Below, piece after piece: positions 1 to 5,816 of a stretch of 46,106 nt of DNA. Position 1 is the stretch's first letter; every line of letters starts with the position of its first letter. The translations under genes and the position numbers were made by a program. The notes beneath the pieces were generated by a model that did not search any database, was not told the DNA's origin, and saw only the letters and a list, made by a program, of their open reading frames with translations. Origin of the DNA: Candidatus Undinarchaeales archaeon. GTDB taxonomy: Archaea; SpSt-1190; JASMDC01. The DNA lies in the NCBI GenBank assembly GCA_030753015.1, contig JASMDC010000027.1, positions 1-46,106 of the forward strand, read 5' to 3'.

Positions 1-1
1 C

Positions 2-595
2 CTCTTGCACGGTGGAGGCCTCGGTCAAGTAGGATAATGCGATGAAGTCCACGTCATGTTCGAACCCGAACGCAAGGTCCTCGCGGTCCTTCCCGGTAAG
101 GTTGGGGAGGCTCATCTCCCTGCCCGGGACGATCACGCTCTTGTTGGATCCCAGGATGCAGTCGGACAAGACCCTGCACTTGACGTCGTCTCCTGAGATC
201 GAGGTCACCTTCAGCTGGACCGCGCCATCACTGATCAGGACGCGGTCACCGACCTTGATGTCCTTCGCCAATCCCGGGTGCGACTGCCGTATCATCCTCT
301 TGCCCGGATCGGTCCCCTTGTTGGTCAGGGTCAGTATCTCGCCCTTCGCAAGGTCCAGGGGATCGTCCAGCACATCGGTCCTGATTTCCGGACCTTTCGT
401 ATCCAGCATGACAGCGATCTCGGGGGATATCTTCCTGATCTTCCTGATGACATCCCCGTGATACTGATGGTCGCCGTGGGAAAGGTTCAACCTCGCTATG
501 TTGAGACCACCCTCGATCATCTTCTTCAGGGTCGTGGTGTCATCGCACGAGGGCCCTATGGTGCACACCAGCTTGGTGAACTCTAATGGTCTCAT
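2..595 (-). CDS. pyk: Pyruvate kinase (N-terminal part; runs off window start)
   Basis: Manual translation from ATG at 595: MRPLEFTKLVCTIGPSCDDTTTLKKMIEGGLNIARLNLSHG...MLDTKGPEIRT, carrying the canonical TKxVCTIGP, ARLNxSHG and DTKGPEIRT motifs. BRE-TATA (gaaaagctcttaata, minus strand) at about 617-632. Not in the supplied ORF track because it is truncated. Confidence 0.95.
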   Translation of the reverse strand, partial: MRPLEFTKLVCTIGPSCDDTTTLKKMIEGGLNIARLNLSHGDHQYHGDVIRKIRKISPEIAVMLDTKGPEIRTDVLDDPLDLAKGEILTLTNKGTDPGKRMIRQSHPGLAKDIKVGDRVLISDGAVQLKVTSISGDDVKCRVLSDCILGSNKSVIVPGREMSLPNLTGKDREDLAFGFEHDVDFIALSYLTEASTVQE

Positions 596-693
596 AGAAC
601 TGGCCTTGTCGTCTCCATATTAAGAGCTTTTCTTCAAGTGATGACGATCTGAGTTCGAGATATCATCCCTGGTATCTTGAGGTGGACCAACTG

Positions 694-866
694 CTGGGGG
701 ATACTCCCCCGCCAGGGAGTAACAGAACAATATCACCGCCGGGGACCATCCATCTGCGAAGGCCCCCGGGCGATGATGAACTCGTTACGAAGGTACGGGG
801 GTGCTGGCCCCCGATGACCGGACCCGGGTGCTGGGTCCGTGGGTCACCAGCGCTATAAATCTTTCG
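694..866 (-). ncRNA. Putative structured ncRNA, diverged copy A (homologous to 4583-4796 and 4886-5097), including its BRE-TATA
   Basis: Shares GTAACA, TCACC-CCGGGGACCAT, GGCCC-CCGGG-GATGATGAA, AGGTA-GGGG and CCCCGATGACCG blocks with the other copies. Minus-strand cgaaagatttatagc at 852-866. Strand is inferred. Confidence 0.6.
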
Positions 867-886
867 CAGAGTGTCAGGTCGTCGCC

Positions 887-1363
887 TTACGCCCCTTCCT
901 GGTCCTTCTTCTGCACGATGTAGAGGTAGCTGTCGATGATCTCGGTGCTGTCCTCGTTCCGGAACAGGTACACGAAGCTCTGGCTCTCGCCCATGTCCTT
1001 TGAAGACCAGATGGCGGGCGCTGTACCGGGCAGGGCGAACCGCTTCCCGAACACCGAGTACGTCTTATCTACACGGAACTCCTTTTCCGTCTCTCTGAAC
1101 CTGTAACCGTGCATCTGGGCGGCCTCGGCGAGGGCCTCGGTATCAAGGTCGTTGACAATGAGCATGTCCAGCGCTGTGTCGCCGATCCGGTCGTTCCCGA
1201 GCGAGTCGAACGTGACCATCGCGATACCGCCCGGGTCCTCCTTGCCCAGGTTCGTGGGGAACACCATCTTCGAGCTCCGGTCGGCCGGGTCGCGGCCACC
1301 CTCGTACATACCGATCATACCGGCATAGTCCGTCGCGTCCTCGATGTCGTACATGATCTGCAT
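887..1363 (-). CDS. Hypothetical protein (158 aa), in frame with the upstream ORF across a single TAG
   Basis: Strong C/G third-position bias and an acidic, protein-like composition; no recognisable motif. Confidence 0.7.
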   Translation of the reverse strand: MQIMYDIEDATDYAGMIGMYEGGRDPADRSSKMVFPTNLGKEDPGGIAMVTFDSLGNDRIGDTALDMLIVNDLDTEALAEAAQMHGYRFRETEKEFRVDKTYSVFGKRFALPGTAPAIWSSKDMGESQSFVYLFRNEDSTEIIDSYLYIVQKKDQEGA

Positions 1364-1366
1364 CTC

Positions 1367-1768
1367 CTAGATATCGTACTCGGCCTCTAGCACACCGTCC
1401 CACAGCTCGTGGGTGGCGGACGAGGTGAAGTGCATGTTCAGGGCCAGCCCGGTGTCGTACTTGGCGTAGCCGGCGGGATCGTCCCTGGCCTGCTCGGGGT
1501 ACTTCTCTGTATGGGCTGCGATATCCTCGGCGTAGCCCTGCAGGAAGCTGGCGGCCTCGTCCTTGTCGTCGATGGTCCTGATGGCATAGATGACTATGTC
1601 CTCGAGCAGCTTGCCGGTCTCCTGGTCGGTGATTCGCGCCTTCAGCTGCTGGTACTTGTTCCCGCCCGCGGCAGCGACCTCCTCCTCGAGCTCCTTGCGA
1701 GCCCTGATCTTTTCGAAGATGCCATACCACGCGTCCGGTATCCTGCTTTCGCCATCGTCGGCGTCCAT
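1367..1768 (-). CDS. Hypothetical helical acidic protein
   Basis: Coding-like codon bias. ATG at 1768 (MDADDG) lies about 25 nt downstream of minus-strand TATA atataag (about 1795-1801). Confidence 0.7.
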   Translation of the reverse strand: MDADDGESRIPDAWYGIFEKIRARKELEEEVAAAGGNKYQQLKARITDQETGKLLEDIVIYAIRTIDDKDEAASFLQGYAEDIAAHTEKYPEQARDDPAGYAKYDTGLALNMHFTSSATHELWDGVLEAEYDI

Positions 1769-1866
1769 GACGCCCACGGCGCTAGGAAGGGTTCTTATAT
1801 CTGGACTTGGGGGCGGGCGGTCCGCGAATCCCAATCCATTAAAAGGAAAGGGTCCACAAGGTGTCC

Positions 1867-2577
1867 ATGGCGGGCAAGGGGCCGGGTCTGTTCAGGGCAC
1901 TAAAGCGAGCTGCGGGTATGGGGTCGGGGAGCACAAGTCGGGGCGCAGGCGGCCAGGACATGAGCGCCATCGGGCTCTACCACACGAGCACGAAGATCGG
2001 CTCCATGTCGTTCCGGAACGTGAAGGACGTCGCGTCGTTCAAGGGGAAGGTGCTTCTCATCGTGAAGCCCAAGAAGCCGCTCGGCCAGGCCGAGGTGCAG
2101 GCCATCGTCCAGCGGGTCCAGAACGGCCTGGGCGTCCTTCTGGTCGGCGACGGCGGCGAGGACAACTCGAACCTCAATCCTCTCGCCATCTGGTTCGGCG
2201 TCCAGTTCAACAACGACATCGTCTCGACGTTCGACAAGATGGGCGCCACCACCAACGCGGGGTACACCTACGTCCGTGAGCACGCCATCACCGAGCCGCT
2301 CCACATCTACACGATCGACAAGAGCTGCTCGCTCCGGCTGCGGGATTGGAACCGGCAGGTCCTGCTCTTCTCCAGCCAGGAGAGCTTCTCTGACGCGGAC
2401 GGGAACGAGACCTGGGATACAGGCGAGTACCTGGGCTCGTGTGCAGTCATGGCACAGGCGGAGTACGGCCGGGGACGCGCCATCTTCATCGGCGACGCCA
2501 TCATGTTCGAGCGGCGCAAGGCCCAGGACATGCAGCTTTTGAACCTCGTTGCCAAGTGGCTCGGCCACGAGATGTGA
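1867..2577 (+). CDS. GIFT (GldG/IFT52-like, DUF4350-type) domain protein
   Basis: VLLIVKPKKPLGQAEVQAI...GLGVLLVGD...NLNPLAIWFGVQFNND...GRGRAIFIGDAIMF pattern. Paralog of 30909-31643. Confidence 0.7.
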   Translation: MAGKGPGLFRALKRAAGMGSGSTSRGAGGQDMSAIGLYHTSTKIGSMSFRNVKDVASFKGKVLLIVKPKKPLGQAEVQAIVQRVQNGLGVLLVGDGGEDNSNLNPLAIWFGVQFNNDIVSTFDKMGATTNAGYTYVREHAITEPLHIYTIDKSCSLRLRDWNRQVLLFSSQESFSDADGNETWDTGEYLGSCAVMAQAEYGRGRAIFIGDAIMFERRKAQDMQLLNLVAKWLGHEM

Positions 2578-2608
2578 TCACCTTTCGTCGTCGCATTAAG
2601 AAACAATT

Positions 2609-2632
2609 GGTACTAAAGCATGCTTTAGTACC
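2609..2632. promoter_or_regulatory. Perfect 24-bp palindrome GGTACTAAAGCATGCTTTAGTACC (operator or recombination site)
   Basis: Read directly from the sequence; near-identical second copy at 4517-4540. Confidence 0.6.
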
Positions 2633-2749
2633 CTCTGCCTATTCACCTTTGTTCCCTGTCAAATGAAGAGATGACCATCACGCGTCGTAGGACGCACAGG
2701 GGCCACCTGATCCGATTTCAGTCCCCTCATTTCGGCAGTGTCTTTTCCG

Positions 2750-4174
2750 TTGACACTCCCCCGAATGAATTCGGGGGATTCTTAGAAGCGCGAGCATGAA
2801 GGGTCATGCTGTTACCTCCAGGGGGTGTGCCAGCACCCTGTTAACGCGCCCTCCGAAGACGACGCCTATATTGATCGCACCCGCTGTGTCTCGGTGCGCT
2901 TCTATGCCGCATGATCTGCACTTCAGGAGACGACCCATCTTCGTCACAGATGTGCTGCCGCACCAAGGACACACGCTCGATGTGCCTCTCTCGTCGATTG
3001 TGGTCACCTTGATTCCATGCTCCTGGGCGACGCACTGAAGCCGTTCCAGGAGAAAGCGATGGCTCCAGAAATTGTGGACCATCGAATCCAACTTCCTGCT
3101 GAACCTGGCATCGTCCCTGATCCCCGTGAGATCGCCAGCGACGATCTCGCAGACACCTTTCTCCCAGAGCCGTTGGATCGCTCTCCTGACGATCGTGTTC
3201 ACATACTGCCGGAAGCGTAGCTTCCGCTTGCGGAACAGGGATCTGATCAGCCTTGTTGTCTTCCTACCGTTCGTCCTCTTCGCGATCGACTTCAGTCGGT
3301 TGATACGACGTGACAGGTACCACCAGTTGGAGAGTGCGGGCCGCCCGCTGTATGCGACCGATCGCCTCTCCCCTTCGATCACCACATCGAGCAGTACGAG
3401 CACGCCGAGGTCCACGAAGGCCCTCTTGTTCGAGAGCGGTTGATGCGGAGGATCGACCTCCACCGTCTGCCTGGCATACCACCTCCGCCTGATAGGATCA
3501 TAGAGAAGGGTCAGCAACCCTTGCCTTGTCCAGTTGTTCCATTTCGGCTTTCCTCTCCAATTCACCTCCAACTTTTTCGGCAGCTTCAATGTACTGCCTT
3601 CTATCGTATAGCAATCGCATCGGATGAGTATGAGCTGCTTTCTTTTCCCCGTTGACCTGTCCTTCCAGTATCCAGGAGGGCGCACTCTCTGGATGCGGGG
3701 CGGGAGCTTGCCCTTCTTCTCGAGTTCGAGCAACGCGAAGAACGAACGCCACGCCTCGCTGTTCTTCCTCTCGACCTGCTGAGCGGTCGCAGAGCCGATG
3801 ATGCACTTGTACCTATCGTACAGGTCCTTTGTGTTCCAGTCCACCTTGCCTGTGTTGAAGAAGCTCTGCCGTCGCCGATAGCATATCTCGTTCCAGAGAC
3901 GAGCACAACCATCCGCGATTTCATACAGTCGTTCGTCTTGTTCCAACGAAGGCGACAATGCAAAGGTGTTCGTTCTCCTCATGGTTAGACCTTCGGCTGC
4001 ATCTCAATGTTAGTCCACGATGCTCAAATAGTGTCCTTGGAGCTATAAAGTGGTATAGGGGGCGGCATACCGGTATTCAGATGGATCTTTTACCTTTCGG
4101 GTTTGGTTCCCTTCAGGGAAACACGTCATTCATCCCACCTATGAATCAGGTGGGCTTTCTGCCTCAAACCCGTT
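2750..4174 (-). mobile_element. IS200/IS605-family, tnpB-only (IS1341-type) non-autonomous element
   Basis: Left end on the minus strand: TTAC|aacggg...AAAG-cccacct-gattcat-aggtggg hairpin. Right end: GAAT-cccccgaattcattcgggg hairpin-agtg-TCAA|. The AAAG/TTAC and GAAT/TCAA guide/cleavage pairs match IS608. No tnpA between the ends. Confidence 0.88.
2804..3982 (-). CDS. tnpB: RNA-guided endonuclease TnpB
   Basis: RuvC-I VDLG, IVAGDL, IDERGTS, Zn finger CPWC...CRSC and RuvC-III HRDTAGAINI; N-terminal HTH-like region. Confidence 0.95.
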   Translation of the reverse strand: MRRTNTFALSPSLEQDERLYEIADGCARLWNEICYRRRQSFFNTGKVDWNTKDLYDRYKCIIGSATAQQVERKNSEAWRSFFALLELEKKGKLPPRIQRVRPPGYWKDRSTGKRKQLILIRCDCYTIEGSTLKLPKKLEVNWRGKPKWNNWTRQGLLTLLYDPIRRRWYARQTVEVDPPHQPLSNKRAFVDLGVLVLLDVVIEGERRSVAYSGRPALSNWWYLSRRINRLKSIAKRTNGRKTTRLIRSLFRKRKLRFRQYVNTIVRRAIQRLWEKGVCEIVAGDLTGIRDDARFSRKLDSMVHNFWSHRFLLERLQCVAQEHGIKVTTIDERGTSSVCPWCGSTSVTKMGRLLKCRSCGIEAHRDTAGAINIGVVFGGRVNRVLAHPLEVTA

Positions 4175-4220
4175 GTAAGCGCATGTCCTCCCGCTCCACT
4201 AAAAGTCACGAACGTACGGC

Positions 4221-4514
4221 CTACATCCCCAACCGCACCCTGTCATCTTTGGAGAGTTTCACGTCCCGGACGCTTATCTCTCCACCATATTGCTCGATGA
4301 AGGCAATGACCCTCTGAGAGTCCCCTTTCCTGACTATCAGCATCGACCGGCCGAGCCTGATATATGGGAAGCCGTCGATGAACCCCTCTCGGATATACGT
4401 ATACCGGCCGTACTTCGACTTGTCGGTCCATCCCCAGAAGCGCCGAGAGAACTTGCTCCCCTGGCTCCGGGGGACATTGGTGAACGTGTAGATGATCTGG
4501 ACGCCTTCATCCAT
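4221..4514 (-). CDS. Small basic archaeal protein (97 aa), possible ferredoxin-like (Cas2/VapD-like) fold
   Basis: IIYTF...KFSRRFWG..DKSKYGRYTY.REG....RLGRSMLIV pattern resembles an uncharacterised small archaeal family. TATA at about 4539-4545 on the minus strand. The fold call is inference. Confidence 0.7.
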   Translation of the reverse strand: MDEGVQIIYTFTNVPRSQGSKFSRRFWGWTDKSKYGRYTYIREGFIDGFPYIRLGRSMLIVRKGDSQRVIAFIEQYGGEISVRDVKLSKDDRVRLGM

Positions 4515-4516
4515 AT

Positions 4517-4540
4517 GGTACTAAAGCATGTTTCAGTACT
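4517..4540. promoter_or_regulatory. Imperfect copy of the 24-bp palindrome, between the TATA box and ATG of the 97-aa gene
   Basis: GGTACTAAAGCATGTTTCAGTACT, 21/24 identical to 2609-2632. Confidence 0.6.
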
Positions 4541-4582
4541 TATATCTTCCGATTTCAACGTTCCACAAGATCATTTCACGCC

Positions 4583-4796
4583 CCACCGAACACCGGATAC
4601 TAGCAGCCGGGTACAGAGATGACGGGGACTCCTCCCGGTCGTAACAAATCGATTTCACCCCCGGGGACCATTACACTGATGGCCCACCCCGGGGATGATG
4701 AATGGATTCTGGAGGTAGGGGATACCTGACGGGTGCCCCCGATGACCGAAGCCAACCAGCTGACCCGGTGGGGCCACCCAACCTTATCAACCTTTT
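4583..4796 (-). ncRNA. Putative structured ncRNA copy B
   Basis: Multi-hairpin scaffold; minus-strand aaaaggTTGATAAG promoter-like motif at 4783-4796. Confidence 0.6.
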
Positions 4797-4885
4797 GTGC
4801 CCGGTGGCGCTTTCAGGTGCTCAGCAGTCGTAGGACCGGCCGCCAATGGAGGTCGGACCACACAATGACATGCAGGCATCACACT

Positions 4886-5097
4886 CCACCGAACACCGGA
4901 TCCCAAGAGCCGGGCACAGAGATGACGGGGACTCCTCCCGGTCGTAACAAAATAGTTTCACCCCCGGGGACCATTACACTGATGGCCCCCCGGGGATGAT
5001 GAATGGATTCTGGAGGTAGGGGATTCCTGACGGGTGTCCCCGATGACCGTACCCACCTAACCGACCCGGTGGGGCCACCCAACCTTATCAACCTTTT
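4886..5097 (-). ncRNA. Putative structured ncRNA copy C
   Basis: As copy B; promoter-like motif at 5084-5097. Confidence 0.6.
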
Positions 5098-5121
5098 GCG
5101 CCCGGTGGCGCTTTCAGGTGC

Positions 5122-5391
5122 TCAGCAGTCGTAGAACCAGCCGCCGATGGCGCCCACACCGGCGAATCCGACCTCGATGGAGTAGTCCACCGTCTGCAGC
5201 TCGGCATCGGTGAGGTAGGCGATCTTCTCGTCAATCCCGGTGTAGTGTGTGATGAGCATGCCCAGCCCGTAGCCGACGAGACCGCCCGCAGCGACCTCCA
5301 GCACGCGCATGTCCTCGGCAGCAGCGTATCCGTCGACAGATGCAGCCTCTGAGGTCCCGATGGTGTCAAGCTCGATGTCCATGATGATCAT
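5122..5391 (-). CDS. Small Gly-rich hydrophobic protein (about 89 aa) with leader-like acidic segments
   Basis: ATG at 5391 (or 5382) downstream of minus-strand TATA at about 5422-5431; two GxxxG-rich hydrophobic segments. Confidence 0.65.
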   Translation of the reverse strand: MIIMDIELDTIGTSEAASVDGYAAAEDMRVLEVAAGGLVGYGLGMLITHYTGIDEKIAYLTDAELQTVDYSIEVGFAGVGAIGGWFYDC

Positions 5392-5816
5392 CCTCGATGT
5401 GGGCAACCGGCAGGGGGACGCGTTTAATAATCTTTGTCCGGCTCGGAGCGGGCGACCTGCGTCGCCGATATGCATCCTTTAATTTCTGATGGTCCCGATA
5501 TCGAACAATACCAGCACGTTCGGATGCCGTACCGGTCTCGCATCACCTGCTCACCGCCCTCGGATGCGTCCTGATGGCGATAGGTCTGCAGATTGCGTTG
5601 TTCATCCTGCAGATGGTCTTTTCCACAAAGGATTCAGACCTTAGGCCCATCTCCATGTTCAGTGTCCTGTTGGTACTCTTCTTCTCTGGACCGGGGCTCG
5701 GCCTCATCCTCTTTCAGTCCAAGCGTCAAGGCCTGAACGGCGTGGCCTCCGGGAGGTACTCCGACCGAGGGCCGTTAATGCAATGATTTATCAAGCAAGA
5801 GCGACTCCACGCATCC

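What the first reader, a model, noticed from the sequence alone, without database searches (positions are those of the whole stretch)
694..5097. Three copies of an unannotated structured RNA with constant scaffold, variable segments and their own promoters
Seen: copies at about 694-866, 4583-4796 and 4886-5097 share ordered blocks forming hairpins. The central hairpin covaries (tcaccGcc/ggCgatga in A; tcaccCcc/ggGgatga in B and C). It keeps two A.C oppositions that become G.U pairs on the minus strand. Each copy has a minus-strand BRE-TATA 31-34 nt from the conserved CGGTCATC block, even though the downstream genes have their own TATA boxes. A transcript would therefore start in a variable segment of about 13 nt (C GGUUAGGUGGGUA, B AGCUGGUUGGCUU, A CAGCACCCGGGUC) followed by the scaffold. 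B and C differ at 6 of 13 positions there, but at only 3 of 29 in the duplicated gene remnant. A second 12-nt segment between ATGATGA and GGTA keeps its length but differs in A. Inference: a family of stand-alone guide-like RNAs (variable 5' guide plus scaffold, reminiscent of trans-encoded OMEGA-type RNAs) with an unidentified protein partner.
Basis: partly seen in the sequence, partly recalled or inferred. Interest (0 to 1): 0.85.

Follow-up and report, generated by a model that had tools for sequence, protein, structure and literature searches.

The report
Two-stranded box C/D-like guide RNA genes
A small repeated RNA gene in a marine archaeon looks on one strand like a methylation-guide (box C/D) RNA aimed at unspliced tRNA-Trp, tRNA-Met and 16S rRNA, yet carries a strong promoter and a hairpin on the opposite strand, so both strands may make RNA.

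Summary
The element has 9 copies in this 3.85-Mb archaeal genome and 4 in its sister species. It was found in 0 of 39 other archaeal genomes searched and matches no Rfam family at gathering score. The minus-strand promoter is convincing: 13 of 14 copies score above the 99.9th genomic percentile of a matrix built from this genome's own tRNA promoters. The central hairpin is a minus-sense helix (31 G.U cells against 1).

The "variable 5' guide" (V1) has no significant target. The conserved 12-nt second segment (V2) is the one with targets, and only when read on the plus strand:
- pre-tRNA-Trp, 16 nt, anticodon loop plus intron;
- pre-tRNA-Met, 11 of 12;
- the 16S 3' region, 12 nt.

On the plus strand every copy has a box C/D layout: stem, AUGAUGA, 12 nt, GGUA, hairpin, CGAUGACC, 10-12 nt, CUGA, stem. 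The terminal stem covaries. Fibrillarin, Nop5 and L7Ae genes are present.

Best reading: a box C/D-type guide RNA family on the plus strand, overlapped by a convergent minus-strand transcription unit. Caveats: D' is not canonical, the N+5 rule misses C34, and no RNA data exist.

The parts
684..866 (.). Copy A, whole cassette. It looks partly decayed on the plus strand: D box is CUGG and V2 has 2 mismatches to 16S.
   Evidence: Covariance-model hit 684-849 minus strand, 133 bits. Layout. Identical copy on metagenome contig L028.
851..866 (-). Copy A: BRE/TATA (CGAAAGATTTATAGCG) firing into the element on the minus strand
   Evidence: Matrix score 11.9 bits against a genomic 99.9th percentile of 5.6. 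Resembles the tRNA promoters listed.
835..848 (+). Copy A: Z, the 3' strand of the plus-sense terminal stem. On the minus strand it lies between TATA and the predicted start.
   Evidence: Pairs with Y, with compensated changes.
831..834 (+). Copy A: D-box position, CUGG here (CUGA in 11 of 14 copies)
820..830 (+). On the plus strand it is the spacer between the C'-like box and the D box.
812..819 (+). Copy A: C'-like box CGAUGACC
   Evidence: 12 of 14 copies are identical.
796..811 (.). Copy A: P2 hairpin
780..795 (+). Copy A: V2 (12 nt, 780-791) plus the D'-like GGUA (792-795)
   Evidence: Best complementary run only 8 nt.
773..779 (+). Copy A: C box AUGAUGA
733..771 (-). Copy A: P3 hairpin (X 733-749, loop, Y 760-771). 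A minus-sense helix; Y is also the 5' strand of the plus-sense terminal stem.
   Evidence: 97.4% of cells paired on the minus sense. 31 G.U cells against 1.
712..723 (.). Copy A: P1b, the conserved partner of the CGGUCAUC / GAUGACCG block
4605..4797 (.). Copy B, whole cassette, tandem with C and abutting an IS200/IS605 end
   Evidence: Covariance-model hit 4605-4778 minus strand, 151 bits. Promoter complement 4782-4797, score 13.8.
4695..4701 (+). Copy B: C box AUGAUGA
4702..4713 (+). Copy B: V2 AUGGAUUCUGGA, antisense to pre-tRNA-Trp U33-G37 plus 7 intron nt. Pairing runs on to 16 nt.
4748..4763 (+). Copy B: V1 (4748-4759) and D box CUGA (4760-4763)
4764..4778 (+). Copy B: Z, 3' strand of the terminal stem
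4908..5098 (.). Copy C, whole cassette
   Evidence: Covariance-model hit 4908-5079 minus strand, 157 bits. Promoter complement 5083-5098, score 13.8.
4983..4994 (+). Copy C: Y, 5' strand of the terminal stem and also the 3' arm of the hairpin as read on the plus strand
4996..5002 (+). Copy C: C box AUGAUGA
5003..5018 (+). Copy C: V2 (5003-5014, same as in B) plus GGUA (5015-5018)
5041..5048 (+). Copy C: C'-like box CGAUGACC
5049..5064 (+). Copy C: V1 (5049-5060) and D box variant CCGA (5061-5064)
5065..5079 (+). Copy C: Z, 3' strand of the terminal stem

Best explanation
Each copy is a small-RNA gene cassette that carries information on both strands.

On the window's plus strand it encodes a box C/D-type antisense guide RNA of about 90-100 nt. 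The order is: a long terminal stem (Y with Z), C box AUGAUGA, a 12-nt guide (V2), a D'-like GGUA, a hairpin (P2) in place of the usual short D'-C' linker, a C'-like CGAUGACC, a 10-12-nt second spacer (V1), and D box CUGA.

V2 base-pairs with unspliced pre-tRNA-Trp (anticodon loop plus intron), with unspliced pre-tRNA-Met (same region) or with the 16S 3' region. The RNA would be bound by L7Ae, Nop5 and fibrillarin and would direct 2'-O-methylation or act as an antisense chaperone. That step is inferred.

V1 is an orphan or rapidly changing second guide.

On the minus strand a strong tRNA-type promoter fires into the same DNA. The predicted transcript starts at V1, is antisense to the guide RNA, and contains the G.U-rich hairpin P3 followed by a short U-rich tract. 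Its role is unknown; the options considered are an anti-guide, regulation by convergent transcription, or a function of its own.

Shown here: the sequence layout, the covariation, the target complementarity, the promoter match and the presence of the protein genes. Inferred: transcription of either strand, protein binding, methylation, and any interplay between the two RNAs.
For: Plus-strand layout (14 of 14 copies parsed):
- GAUGAUGA in 12 of 14.
- CUGA in 11 of 14 (CCGA in 2, CUGG in 1).
- CGAUGACC in 12 of 14.
- GGUA in 12 of 14.
- V2 is 12 nt in 13 of 14.

Terminal stem Y-Z: 83% of cells paired, against 38-64% for the whole tested structure when partners are slid. Two of its pairs changed on both sides: columns 100-176 (GC 7, CG 6, GU 1) and 97-179 (CG 7, GC 3, GU 1). 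Copy I gives a third compatible combination. Z lies outside the predicted minus transcript.

Targets:
- Plus-sense V2 has a Watson-Crick run of 10 or more to rRNA or pre-tRNA in 8 of 14 copies, and 9 or more in 12 of 14.
- Only 6 of 400 random genomic 12-mers reach 10.
- Minus-sense V2 never exceeds 8 (0 of 14).
- Three independent targets: pre-tRNA-Trp (16 nt perfect), intron-containing pre-tRNA-Met (10 contiguous, 11 of 12) and 16S UCGUAACAAGGU (12 nt).

PMC2584109 (passages read) says archaeal C/D guides for Cm34 of tRNA-Trp and tRNA-Met pair partly with the intron. PMC6009581 (passages read) reports a stand-alone Pyrobaculum sRNA for C34 of tRNA-Trp and expanded sRNA families.

Conservation of the targets: pre-tRNA-Trp is 95 of 95 identical in G001, intron included. 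The pre-tRNA-Met target stretch is unchanged.

Protein genes in this genome: fibrillarin (284 bits) next to Nop5 (205 bits), and L7Ae (100 bits).

Rfam's only weak hits in the element are archaeal C/D families sR28 and sR1 on the plus strand, 4691-4765, E 1.3 and 6.9.

Minus strand:
- BRE/TATA scores 10.5-14.5 bits in 11 copies and 6.4 in 2, against a genomic 99.9th percentile of 5.6, all at the same offset.
- P3 is 97.4% paired on the minus sense, against 84.5% and 73.5% for its two parts on the plus sense.
- 31 G.U cells against 1.
- Regions outside the C/D core (X, P1b, GGAGGAGUAC) are conserved between orthologs.
Against: - No expression data exist for either strand.
- D' is GGUA, not CUGA. 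A kink-turn there would need an A.U in place of the second sheared pair (my reading of kink-turn rules, recalled).
- Counted from GGUA, the N+5 rule puts the methyl group on G37 of tRNA-Trp and U36 of tRNA-Met, not on the known C34. The two targets are also offset by one.
- The tRNA-Trp duplex runs 3 nt into the C box.
- No convincing plus-strand promoter. The internal CGAAAGCATTTCACC-like box scores 7.7 at best and usually under 5. The review PMC7994747 (passages read) says only about 20% of archaeal C/D genes have their own promoter.
- The terminal stem shows no strand bias: 4 G.U cells on the plus sense against 5 on the minus.
- Copy g1_H has a ruined C box, yet its changes are all G.U-compatible on the minus sense and its V2 is intact.
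- The 16S match is perfect only in copy D. A and the G001 relative have 8-nt runs.
- Five near-redundant tRNA-Trp guides in one genome is odd for a catalytic guide.
- All sequences come from one genus, so covariation rests on few events.
Confidence: 0.45

Rival explanations
1. Only the minus strand is functional. A roughly 110-150-nt structured sRNA is made from a tRNA-type promoter and folds as a three-way junction: P1, P2 and the long P3 hairpin. The single-stranded joint between P2 and P3 (V2') carries an exact copy of the pre-tRNA-Trp or pre-tRNA-Met anticodon-loop/intron junction, or of the 16S 1495-1505 stretch. It would act as a target mimic or decoy, or have some other unknown role. 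The box C/D look of the other strand would be a by-product.
For: - Strong, position-fixed promoter in 13 of 14 copies.
- P3 has 31 G.U cells against 1 and is 97.4% paired on the minus sense.
- The full element folds more stably on the minus sense in 12 of 14 copies.
- X, P1b and the GGAGGAGUAC tail are conserved.
- g1_H keeps the minus-sense pairings and V2 while losing the C box.
Against: - Z and UCAG lie upstream of the predicted start, 22-23 nt after TATA as at this genome's tRNA genes. Yet they are conserved and covary with Y.
- A chance antisense would have to show AUGAUGA and CUGA correctly set against an 11-bp stem, 12-nt spacing, and complementarity to the two classic C/D tRNA substrates.
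- P1 has an invariant A.C on the minus sense (14 of 14) that is a G.U on the plus sense.
- No known mechanism needs a single-stranded copy of these segments.
- Copy I lacks the promoter but keeps the stem and boxes.
Confidence: 0.25
2. Only the plus strand is functional. It is an ordinary but elaborate box C/D sRNA family, made from longer transcripts and trimmed to the kink-turn. The 5' leader (GUACUCC, P1b', X) is a folding or processing pro-sequence. The minus-strand 'promoter' is the T-rich terminator region read backwards, or is silent.
For: - All the plus-strand evidence listed under the best explanation.
- In E, F and H a same-direction ORF ends 12-116 nt upstream of the plus-sense 5' end, which would fit co-transcription.
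- P1 is a continuous 9-bp helix with an invariant G.U on the plus sense.
- Most archaeal C/D genes lack their own promoter (PMC7994747, passages read).
Against: - The promoter match includes the directional BRE and equals the genome's best tRNA promoters.
- It is part of the unit that was duplicated and conserved.
- The two conserved C.A mismatches in P3 on the plus sense are G.U on the minus sense.
Confidence: 0.2
3. It is not an RNA gene. It would be a mobile or recombinogenic DNA repeat (MITE-like), or a set of protein-binding palindromes in which X, Y and Z are three copies of one GC-rich motif.
For: - D and its closest G001 relative lie in unrelated flanks, and G and its metagenome relative diverge exactly at the cassette edge.
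- B and C are a tandem duplication.
- X and Z are both complementary to Y.
Against: - Copies are only 69-82% identical, apart from B and C.
- I saw no terminal inverted repeats or target duplications, though I ran no dedicated test.
- Variation is concentrated in loops and spacers, with compensated stem changes.
- V2 has specific complementarity to three stable RNAs.
Confidence: 0.05

Closest known systems
Archaeal box C/D sRNAs that guide tRNA wobble methylation: Pyrococcus sR49 and the Haloferax tRNA-Met guide, the C/D guide inside the pre-tRNA-Trp intron, and Pyrobaculum sR26
   Same: - C and D boxes next to a terminal stem.
- A 12-nt antisense element.
- Targets are pre-tRNA-Trp and intron-containing pre-tRNA-Met, with pairing that includes intron bases (PMC2584109, passages).
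- A stand-alone guide for tRNA-Trp exists in Pyrobaculum (PMC6009581, passages).
- One guide with a target and one orphan guide is typical of tRNA-directed sRNAs (PMC7994747, passages).
- L7Ae, Nop5 and fibrillarin genes are present.
   Different: - D' is GGUA.
- A 14-26-nt hairpin replaces the short D'-C' loop.
- The terminal stem is about 11 bp.
- C34 sits at N+2 or N+3, not N+5.
- 9 paralogs per genome.
- A conserved antisense promoter, a minus-sense hairpin and about 60 nt of extra conserved sequence lie outside the C/D core.
- No Rfam C/D family reaches its gathering score.
Expanded and rearranged C/D sRNA families in Pyrobaculum (Lui et al. 2018, PMC6009581)
   Same: Gene duplication with divergence of one guide. 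Families that spread through a genome. One reported pair of convergently transcribed sRNA genes (passages read).
   Different: In that case two different sRNA genes face each other. Here the convergent promoter reads through the same sRNA gene, and it is conserved in 13 of 14 copies.
   Same: A constant scaffold plus a variable guide-sized segment. A TnpB gene lies in the window.
   Different: - Omega RNAs are encoded within or next to the transposon end and take their guide from the flank.
- Here 8 of 9 copies have no IS nearby.
- V1 has no targets.
- No match to HEARO or other Rfam omega families.
cis-antisense sRNA pairs and promoter-terminator overlaps in archaea
   Same: Convergent transcription over a small RNA gene. 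The BRE/TATA read backwards is T-rich.
   Different: My three literature searches turned up no case in which a C/D sRNA family carries a conserved tRNA-type antisense promoter as part of the repeated unit. They were keyword searches of an open-access library, not exhaustive.

Membership tests
Archaeal box C/D sRNA | C box RUGAUGA near the 5' end | tested here: met
   AUGAUGA in 12 of 14 copies on the plus strand. I has AUGAUAA and g1_H has AUAAGGA.
Archaeal box C/D sRNA | D box CUGA near the 3' end | tested here: met
   CUGA in 11 of 14 copies, CCGA in 2, CUGG in 1 (copy A).
Archaeal box C/D sRNA | Terminal stem that sets C against D (kink-turn geometry) | tested here: met
   The Y-Z stem starts one base before AUGAUGA and directly after CUGA. 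83% of cells are paired and 2 pairs have compensated changes. It is predicted in the minimum-energy fold of the core in 12 of 14 copies. The kink-turn rule itself is recalled, not tested.
Archaeal box C/D sRNA | Internal C' (UGAUGA) and D' (CUGA) boxes | tested here: not met
   C'-like CGAUGA is present in 12 of 14 copies (E has CAUGA, I has GAUGG). D' is GGUA in 12 of 14, never CUGA. A hairpin separates D' from C'.
Archaeal box C/D sRNA | Guide spacers of about 10-12 nt | tested here: met
   V2 is 12 nt in 13 of 14 copies. V1 is 10-12 nt after the conserved CC.
Archaeal box C/D sRNA | Guide complementary to rRNA or tRNA | tested here: met
   V2 has Watson-Crick runs of 10-12 in 8 of 14 copies, against 6 of 400 random 12-mers. 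The opposite sense gives 0 of 14 at 9 or more.
Archaeal box C/D sRNA | Target nucleotide at N+5 is a plausible or known 2'-O-methyl site | tested here: not met
   N+5 from GGUA is G37 in tRNA-Trp, U36 in tRNA-Met, and the base equivalent to E. coli U1498 in 16S (that numbering is recalled). The known C34 sits at N+2 or N+3.
Archaeal box C/D sRNA | L7Ae, Nop5 and fibrillarin encoded by the organism | tested here: met
   PF01269 284 bits, PF01798 205 bits (adjacent genes on contig C47), PF01248 100 bits.
Archaeal box C/D sRNA | Stable transcript of that strand, bound by the proteins | not testable with these tools
   No RNA run holds the locus. The one RNA run laid gave no cover of the element.
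Rfam families (any) | Score at or above the gathering threshold | tested here: not met
   0 matches in the whole window. Best sub-threshold hits are C/D families at 13-20 bits, against cut-offs of 38-45.
TnpB/IscB omega RNA | Encoded at the end of, or next to, a TnpB/IscB transposon | tested here: not met
   Only copy B abuts an IS200/IS605 element. The ORF lists around the other 8 copies show no such neighbour by inspection. Pfam was run only on window ORFs.
MITE / DNA repeat | Near-identical copies with terminal inverted repeats | tested here: inconclusive
   Copies are 69-82% identical. Variation follows RNA helices. No dedicated test for terminal repeats or target duplications was run.

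The most novel reading that the evidence does not exclude
Each cassette is a two-stranded RNA device. One strand gives a C/D-like guide that seizes the exon-intron junction of pre-tRNA-Trp or pre-tRNA-Met, or the 16S decoding-site strand. The other strand, driven by a tRNA-strength promoter, gives a structured anti-guide that carries an exact copy of that target. The cell could then titrate the guide, and so control tRNA splicing or modification. An alternative is that the minus RNA is itself a decoy of anticodon loops and of the 16S A-site strand. The fast-changing V1 would give each copy a second specificity under diversifying selection.
Probability: 0.25. Interest if true: 0.85.

Novelty: new variant of a known kind. 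Interest (0 to 1): 0.6.

Why it matters
If the plus-strand reading is right, this little-known marine archaeal lineage uses stand-alone C/D-like RNAs against intron-containing pre-tRNA-Trp and pre-tRNA-Met. That would explain why these short introns are kept: the tRNA-Trp intron is identical in two species.

The family also shows an unusual C/D architecture, with a hairpin in place of the K-loop, GGUA as D', and a guide register that breaks the N+5 rule. This would test how strictly the C/D machine measures its target.

The conserved tRNA-type promoter on the opposite strand, with a hairpin that works only on that strand, suggests a built-in antisense partner for a guide RNA. My literature searches found no description of this for C/D sRNAs.

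For annotation, it adds 9 RNA genes per genome that no Rfam model finds.

Tried and rejected
- **Rfam.** Nothing at gathering score in the whole window. At E <= 10 in 550-5200 there were only weak C/D snoRNA-type hits and one lncRNA artefact. No tRNA or tmRNA in the window.
- **Wider homologs.**
  - Model R1 found nothing in 39 other archaeal genomes (stricter filters).
  - A degenerate pattern found 1 stretch in genome contigs, the sister species.
  - It found 2 stretches in metagenome contigs, one identical to A and one close to G.
  - All evidence is therefore genus-level.
- **RNA evidence.**
  - No RNA holder is listed for window 1-5400.
  - One poly-A metatranscriptome and three DNA runs were laid on 600-5200.
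  - The RNA run gave two short low-likeness pieces at 2082-2158 only. The DNA contigs added no useful variation in the element.
- **rRNA.** None in G000. I used the 16S and 23S of G001, so the rRNA targets are from the sister species.
- **Canonical C/D genes elsewhere in the genome.** A strict C-D'-C'-D pattern gave 0 hits. C+D plus a 6-bp stem gave 3 hits that look like coding sequence by eye. Both are crude screens.
- **V1 as a guide.** Only F reaches 11 nt, against the tRNA-Pro D-loop, and its ortholog has lost this. The other 13 are at background. The 10-bp match of E to tRNA-Gln C34 is at chance level by my estimate.
- **tRNA ancestry of the minus strand.** Local alignments to 30 pre-tRNAs exceed shuffled controls only through V2.
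- **Internal plus-strand promoter.** Weak by the tRNA-promoter matrix.
- **Strand choice by stability.**
  - Single-sequence z-scores range from -0.3 to -2.8 on both strands.
  - P2 shows no bias: -152.7 against -153.1 kcal/mol summed.
  - The core folds better on the plus sense in 10 of 14 copies. The full element folds better on the minus sense in 12 of 14.
- **Conserved neighbour gene or 5'-UTR role.** Rejected: neighbours and their orientations differ among the 9 loci.
- **Supplementary files.** Those of the papers (guide-target drawings for the Haloferax tRNA-Met and tRNA-Trp guides) were closed. They might show how C34 is placed in known guides.

Full report
**What is there**

The three copies are real. 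They lie at window 684-866 (A), 4605-4797 (B) and 4908-5098 (C). BLAST against the laid genome found six more copies on other contigs.

I built a covariance model from the nine copies.
- It finds exactly nine full-length matches in this 3.85-Mb, 60% G+C genome: 116-165 bits, E <= 6e-22.
- It finds four in the only other genome of the genus, G001.
- It finds none in 39 further archaeal genomes.

A degenerate pattern scan returned one stretch from the species-representative genomes. That is the sister MAG, titled Candidatus Undinarchaeota archaeon. It also returned two metagenome contigs, one identical to copy A and one close to copy G. Fourteen distinct sequences were therefore available, all from one genus.

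Rfam gives no match at gathering score in the window. ARAGORN finds no tRNA there.

Upstream of 23 of the 36 tRNA genes ARAGORN called in this genome there is a BRE/TATA of the form CGAAAGGTTTAAAA. It ends 21-36 nt before the mature 5' end. I made a matrix from those 23 sites and scored the copies.
- 11 copies score 10.5-14.5 bits and 2 score 6.4 bits. The genomic 99.9th percentile is 5.6 and the 99.99th is 12.9.
- The hit is always 16-18 nt before the start of the model.
- Copy I has none.

The long central hairpin (P3, arms X and Y) is 97.4% paired on the minus sense. On the plus sense its two parts are 84.5% and 73.5% paired. Over 17 pairs and 14 sequences there are 31 G.U cells on the minus sense and 1 on the plus sense.

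**V1 is not a conserved guide**

Between orthologs V1 changes as fast as unconstrained spacer. In the recent tandem pair B/C it differs at 5 of 12 positions, while the promoter plus the dead gene remnant differ at 5 of 72 (Fisher p = 0.004).

I compared V1 with the 16S and 23S rRNA of G001 (G000 has none) and with 30 pre-tRNAs of G000. Only copy F reaches a run of 10 or more: 11 nt against the tRNA-Pro D-loop, which its ortholog has lost. The other 13 copies sit at the level of random genomic 12-mers.

**V2 is the conserved segment, and it points to the other strand**

V2 is identical at 11 of 12 positions in six copies that differ elsewhere. Read on the plus strand it is antisense to stable RNAs.
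- The commonest type (B, C, F, G, g1_F, g1_H, and more loosely H and mg_G) matches pre-tRNA-Trp(CCA) from the anticodon loop into the 21-nt intron. The match is 12 of 12 within V2 and 16 contiguous bases in all.
- The E type matches the intron-containing tRNA-Met(CAU) over the same region: 10 contiguous, 11 of 12.
- Copy D matches 16S UCGUAACAAGGU, 12 bases.

Eight of 14 copies have a Watson-Crick run of 10 or more, against 6 of 400 random 12-mers. The minus-sense V2 never exceeds 8.

The tRNA-Trp gene, intron included, is 95 of 95 identical in G001. The tRNA-Met target stretch is unchanged there.

**The plus strand reads as a box C/D RNA**

Every copy parses in this order:
- a stem strand Y;
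- G plus AUGAUGA;
- V2;
- GGUA;
- hairpin P2;
- CGAUGACC;
- V1;
- CUGA;
- a stem strand Z.

Y and Z form a stem of about 11 bp that begins one base before the C box and directly after the D box. That is the geometry of a C/D kink-turn (rule recalled).

The inner nine pairs are 83% paired. Two pairs changed on both sides, and a third combination appears in copy I. Z lies between the minus-strand TATA and its start site, so the minus transcript cannot explain this pairing.

The genome encodes fibrillarin next to Nop5, and L7Ae.

The literature fits (passages read only).
- Archaeal C/D guides for Cm34 of tRNA-Trp and tRNA-Met pair partly with the intron, so they act before splicing (PMC2584109).
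- tRNA-directed sRNAs usually have one real guide and one orphan guide, and only about a fifth of archaeal C/D genes have their own promoter (PMC7994747).
- Pyrobaculum has a stand-alone guide for C34 of tRNA-Trp, and sRNA families that multiplied (PMC6009581).

**What does not fit a plain C/D guide**

- D' is GGUA in 12 of 14 copies, never CUGA.
- A 14-26-nt hairpin replaces the K-loop.
- Counted from GGUA, N+5 is G37 in tRNA-Trp and U36 in tRNA-Met. C34 is at N+2 or N+3, and the two registers differ by one.
- The tRNA-Trp duplex runs into the C box.
- The 16S match is perfect only in D.
- The plus strand has no convincing promoter.
- About 60 nt outside the C/D core (X, the AU-rich joint, P1b and GGAGGAGUAC) are conserved.

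Strand signals are split:
- P3 favours the minus sense.
- P1 has an invariant G.U on the plus sense that is an A.C on the minus sense, in 14 of 14 copies.
- P2 and the terminal stem show no bias.

Two copies look specialised.
- g1_H has a broken C box and terminal stem on the plus sense. All its changes are wobble-compatible on the minus sense, and its V2 is intact.
- Copy I has no minus promoter but keeps the stem and the D box.

**Verdict**

The simplest account of all the conserved parts is a cassette used on both strands. The plus strand gives a box C/D-type antisense RNA aimed at pre-tRNA-Trp, pre-tRNA-Met or 16S. The minus strand gives a promoter-driven, structured antisense RNA.

I give this 0.45, minus strand only 0.25, plus strand only 0.20, and a DNA-level repeat 0.05.

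No expression data could be obtained, so transcription of either strand is inferred.

The omega-RNA analogy is not supported. Only copy B is near the window's IS200/IS605 element.

Noticed in passing
window 2609-4540: An IS200/IS605-type element. Near-identical palindromic hairpins lie at 2609-2632 and 4517-4540. The TnpB ORF is at 2804-3982 on the minus strand (Pfam OrfB_IS605 and Cas12f1-like TNB). A 97-aa ORF at 4221-4514 on the minus strand has no Pfam hit. The element abuts copy B.
   Followed up: partly
window 631-681 (+): A second, short box C/D-like stretch (GUGAUGA ... CUGA, flanked by CUUCAAG/CUUGAGG) between copy A and the pyruvate kinase promoter. The only Rfam hit is snoZ247, 20 bits against a 38-bit cut-off, E 1.8.
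   Followed up: no
window 4540-5163: Copies B and C are a tandem duplication of about 303 bp that also copied the last roughly 30 codons' worth of the upstream gene (5122-5475, minus strand). Differences cluster in V1 (5 of 12) and the AU-rich joint (4 of 12). The rest is nearly identical.
   Followed up: yes
G000 contigs C21:39278-39372 and C25:54412-54527, outside the window: tRNA-Trp has a 21-nt intron without C/D boxes, and tRNA-Met(CAU) has a 42-nt intron. ARAGORN with introns allowed also calls introns in Phe, Tyr, Asp and an Ile/CAU-like gene. The tRNA-Trp gene is 100% identical in the sister species, intron included.
   Followed up: partly
whole genome G000 and G001: These two genomes are 3.6-3.85 Mb at 60% G+C. 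The genomes placed in the same class in the genome set are 0.6-1.2 Mb, and the sister MAG is titled Candidatus Undinarchaeota. G000 also lacks rRNA genes and has 5% estimated contamination. The placement or the binning may deserve a look.
   Followed up: no
L003:3981-4145 (copy F, contig C52): V1 of copy F is a perfect 11-nt antisense of the tRNA-Pro(UGG) D-loop. Several other V1s share an ACCAA core that is antisense to tRNA D-loops. The G001 ortholog has lost the match.
   Followed up: partly
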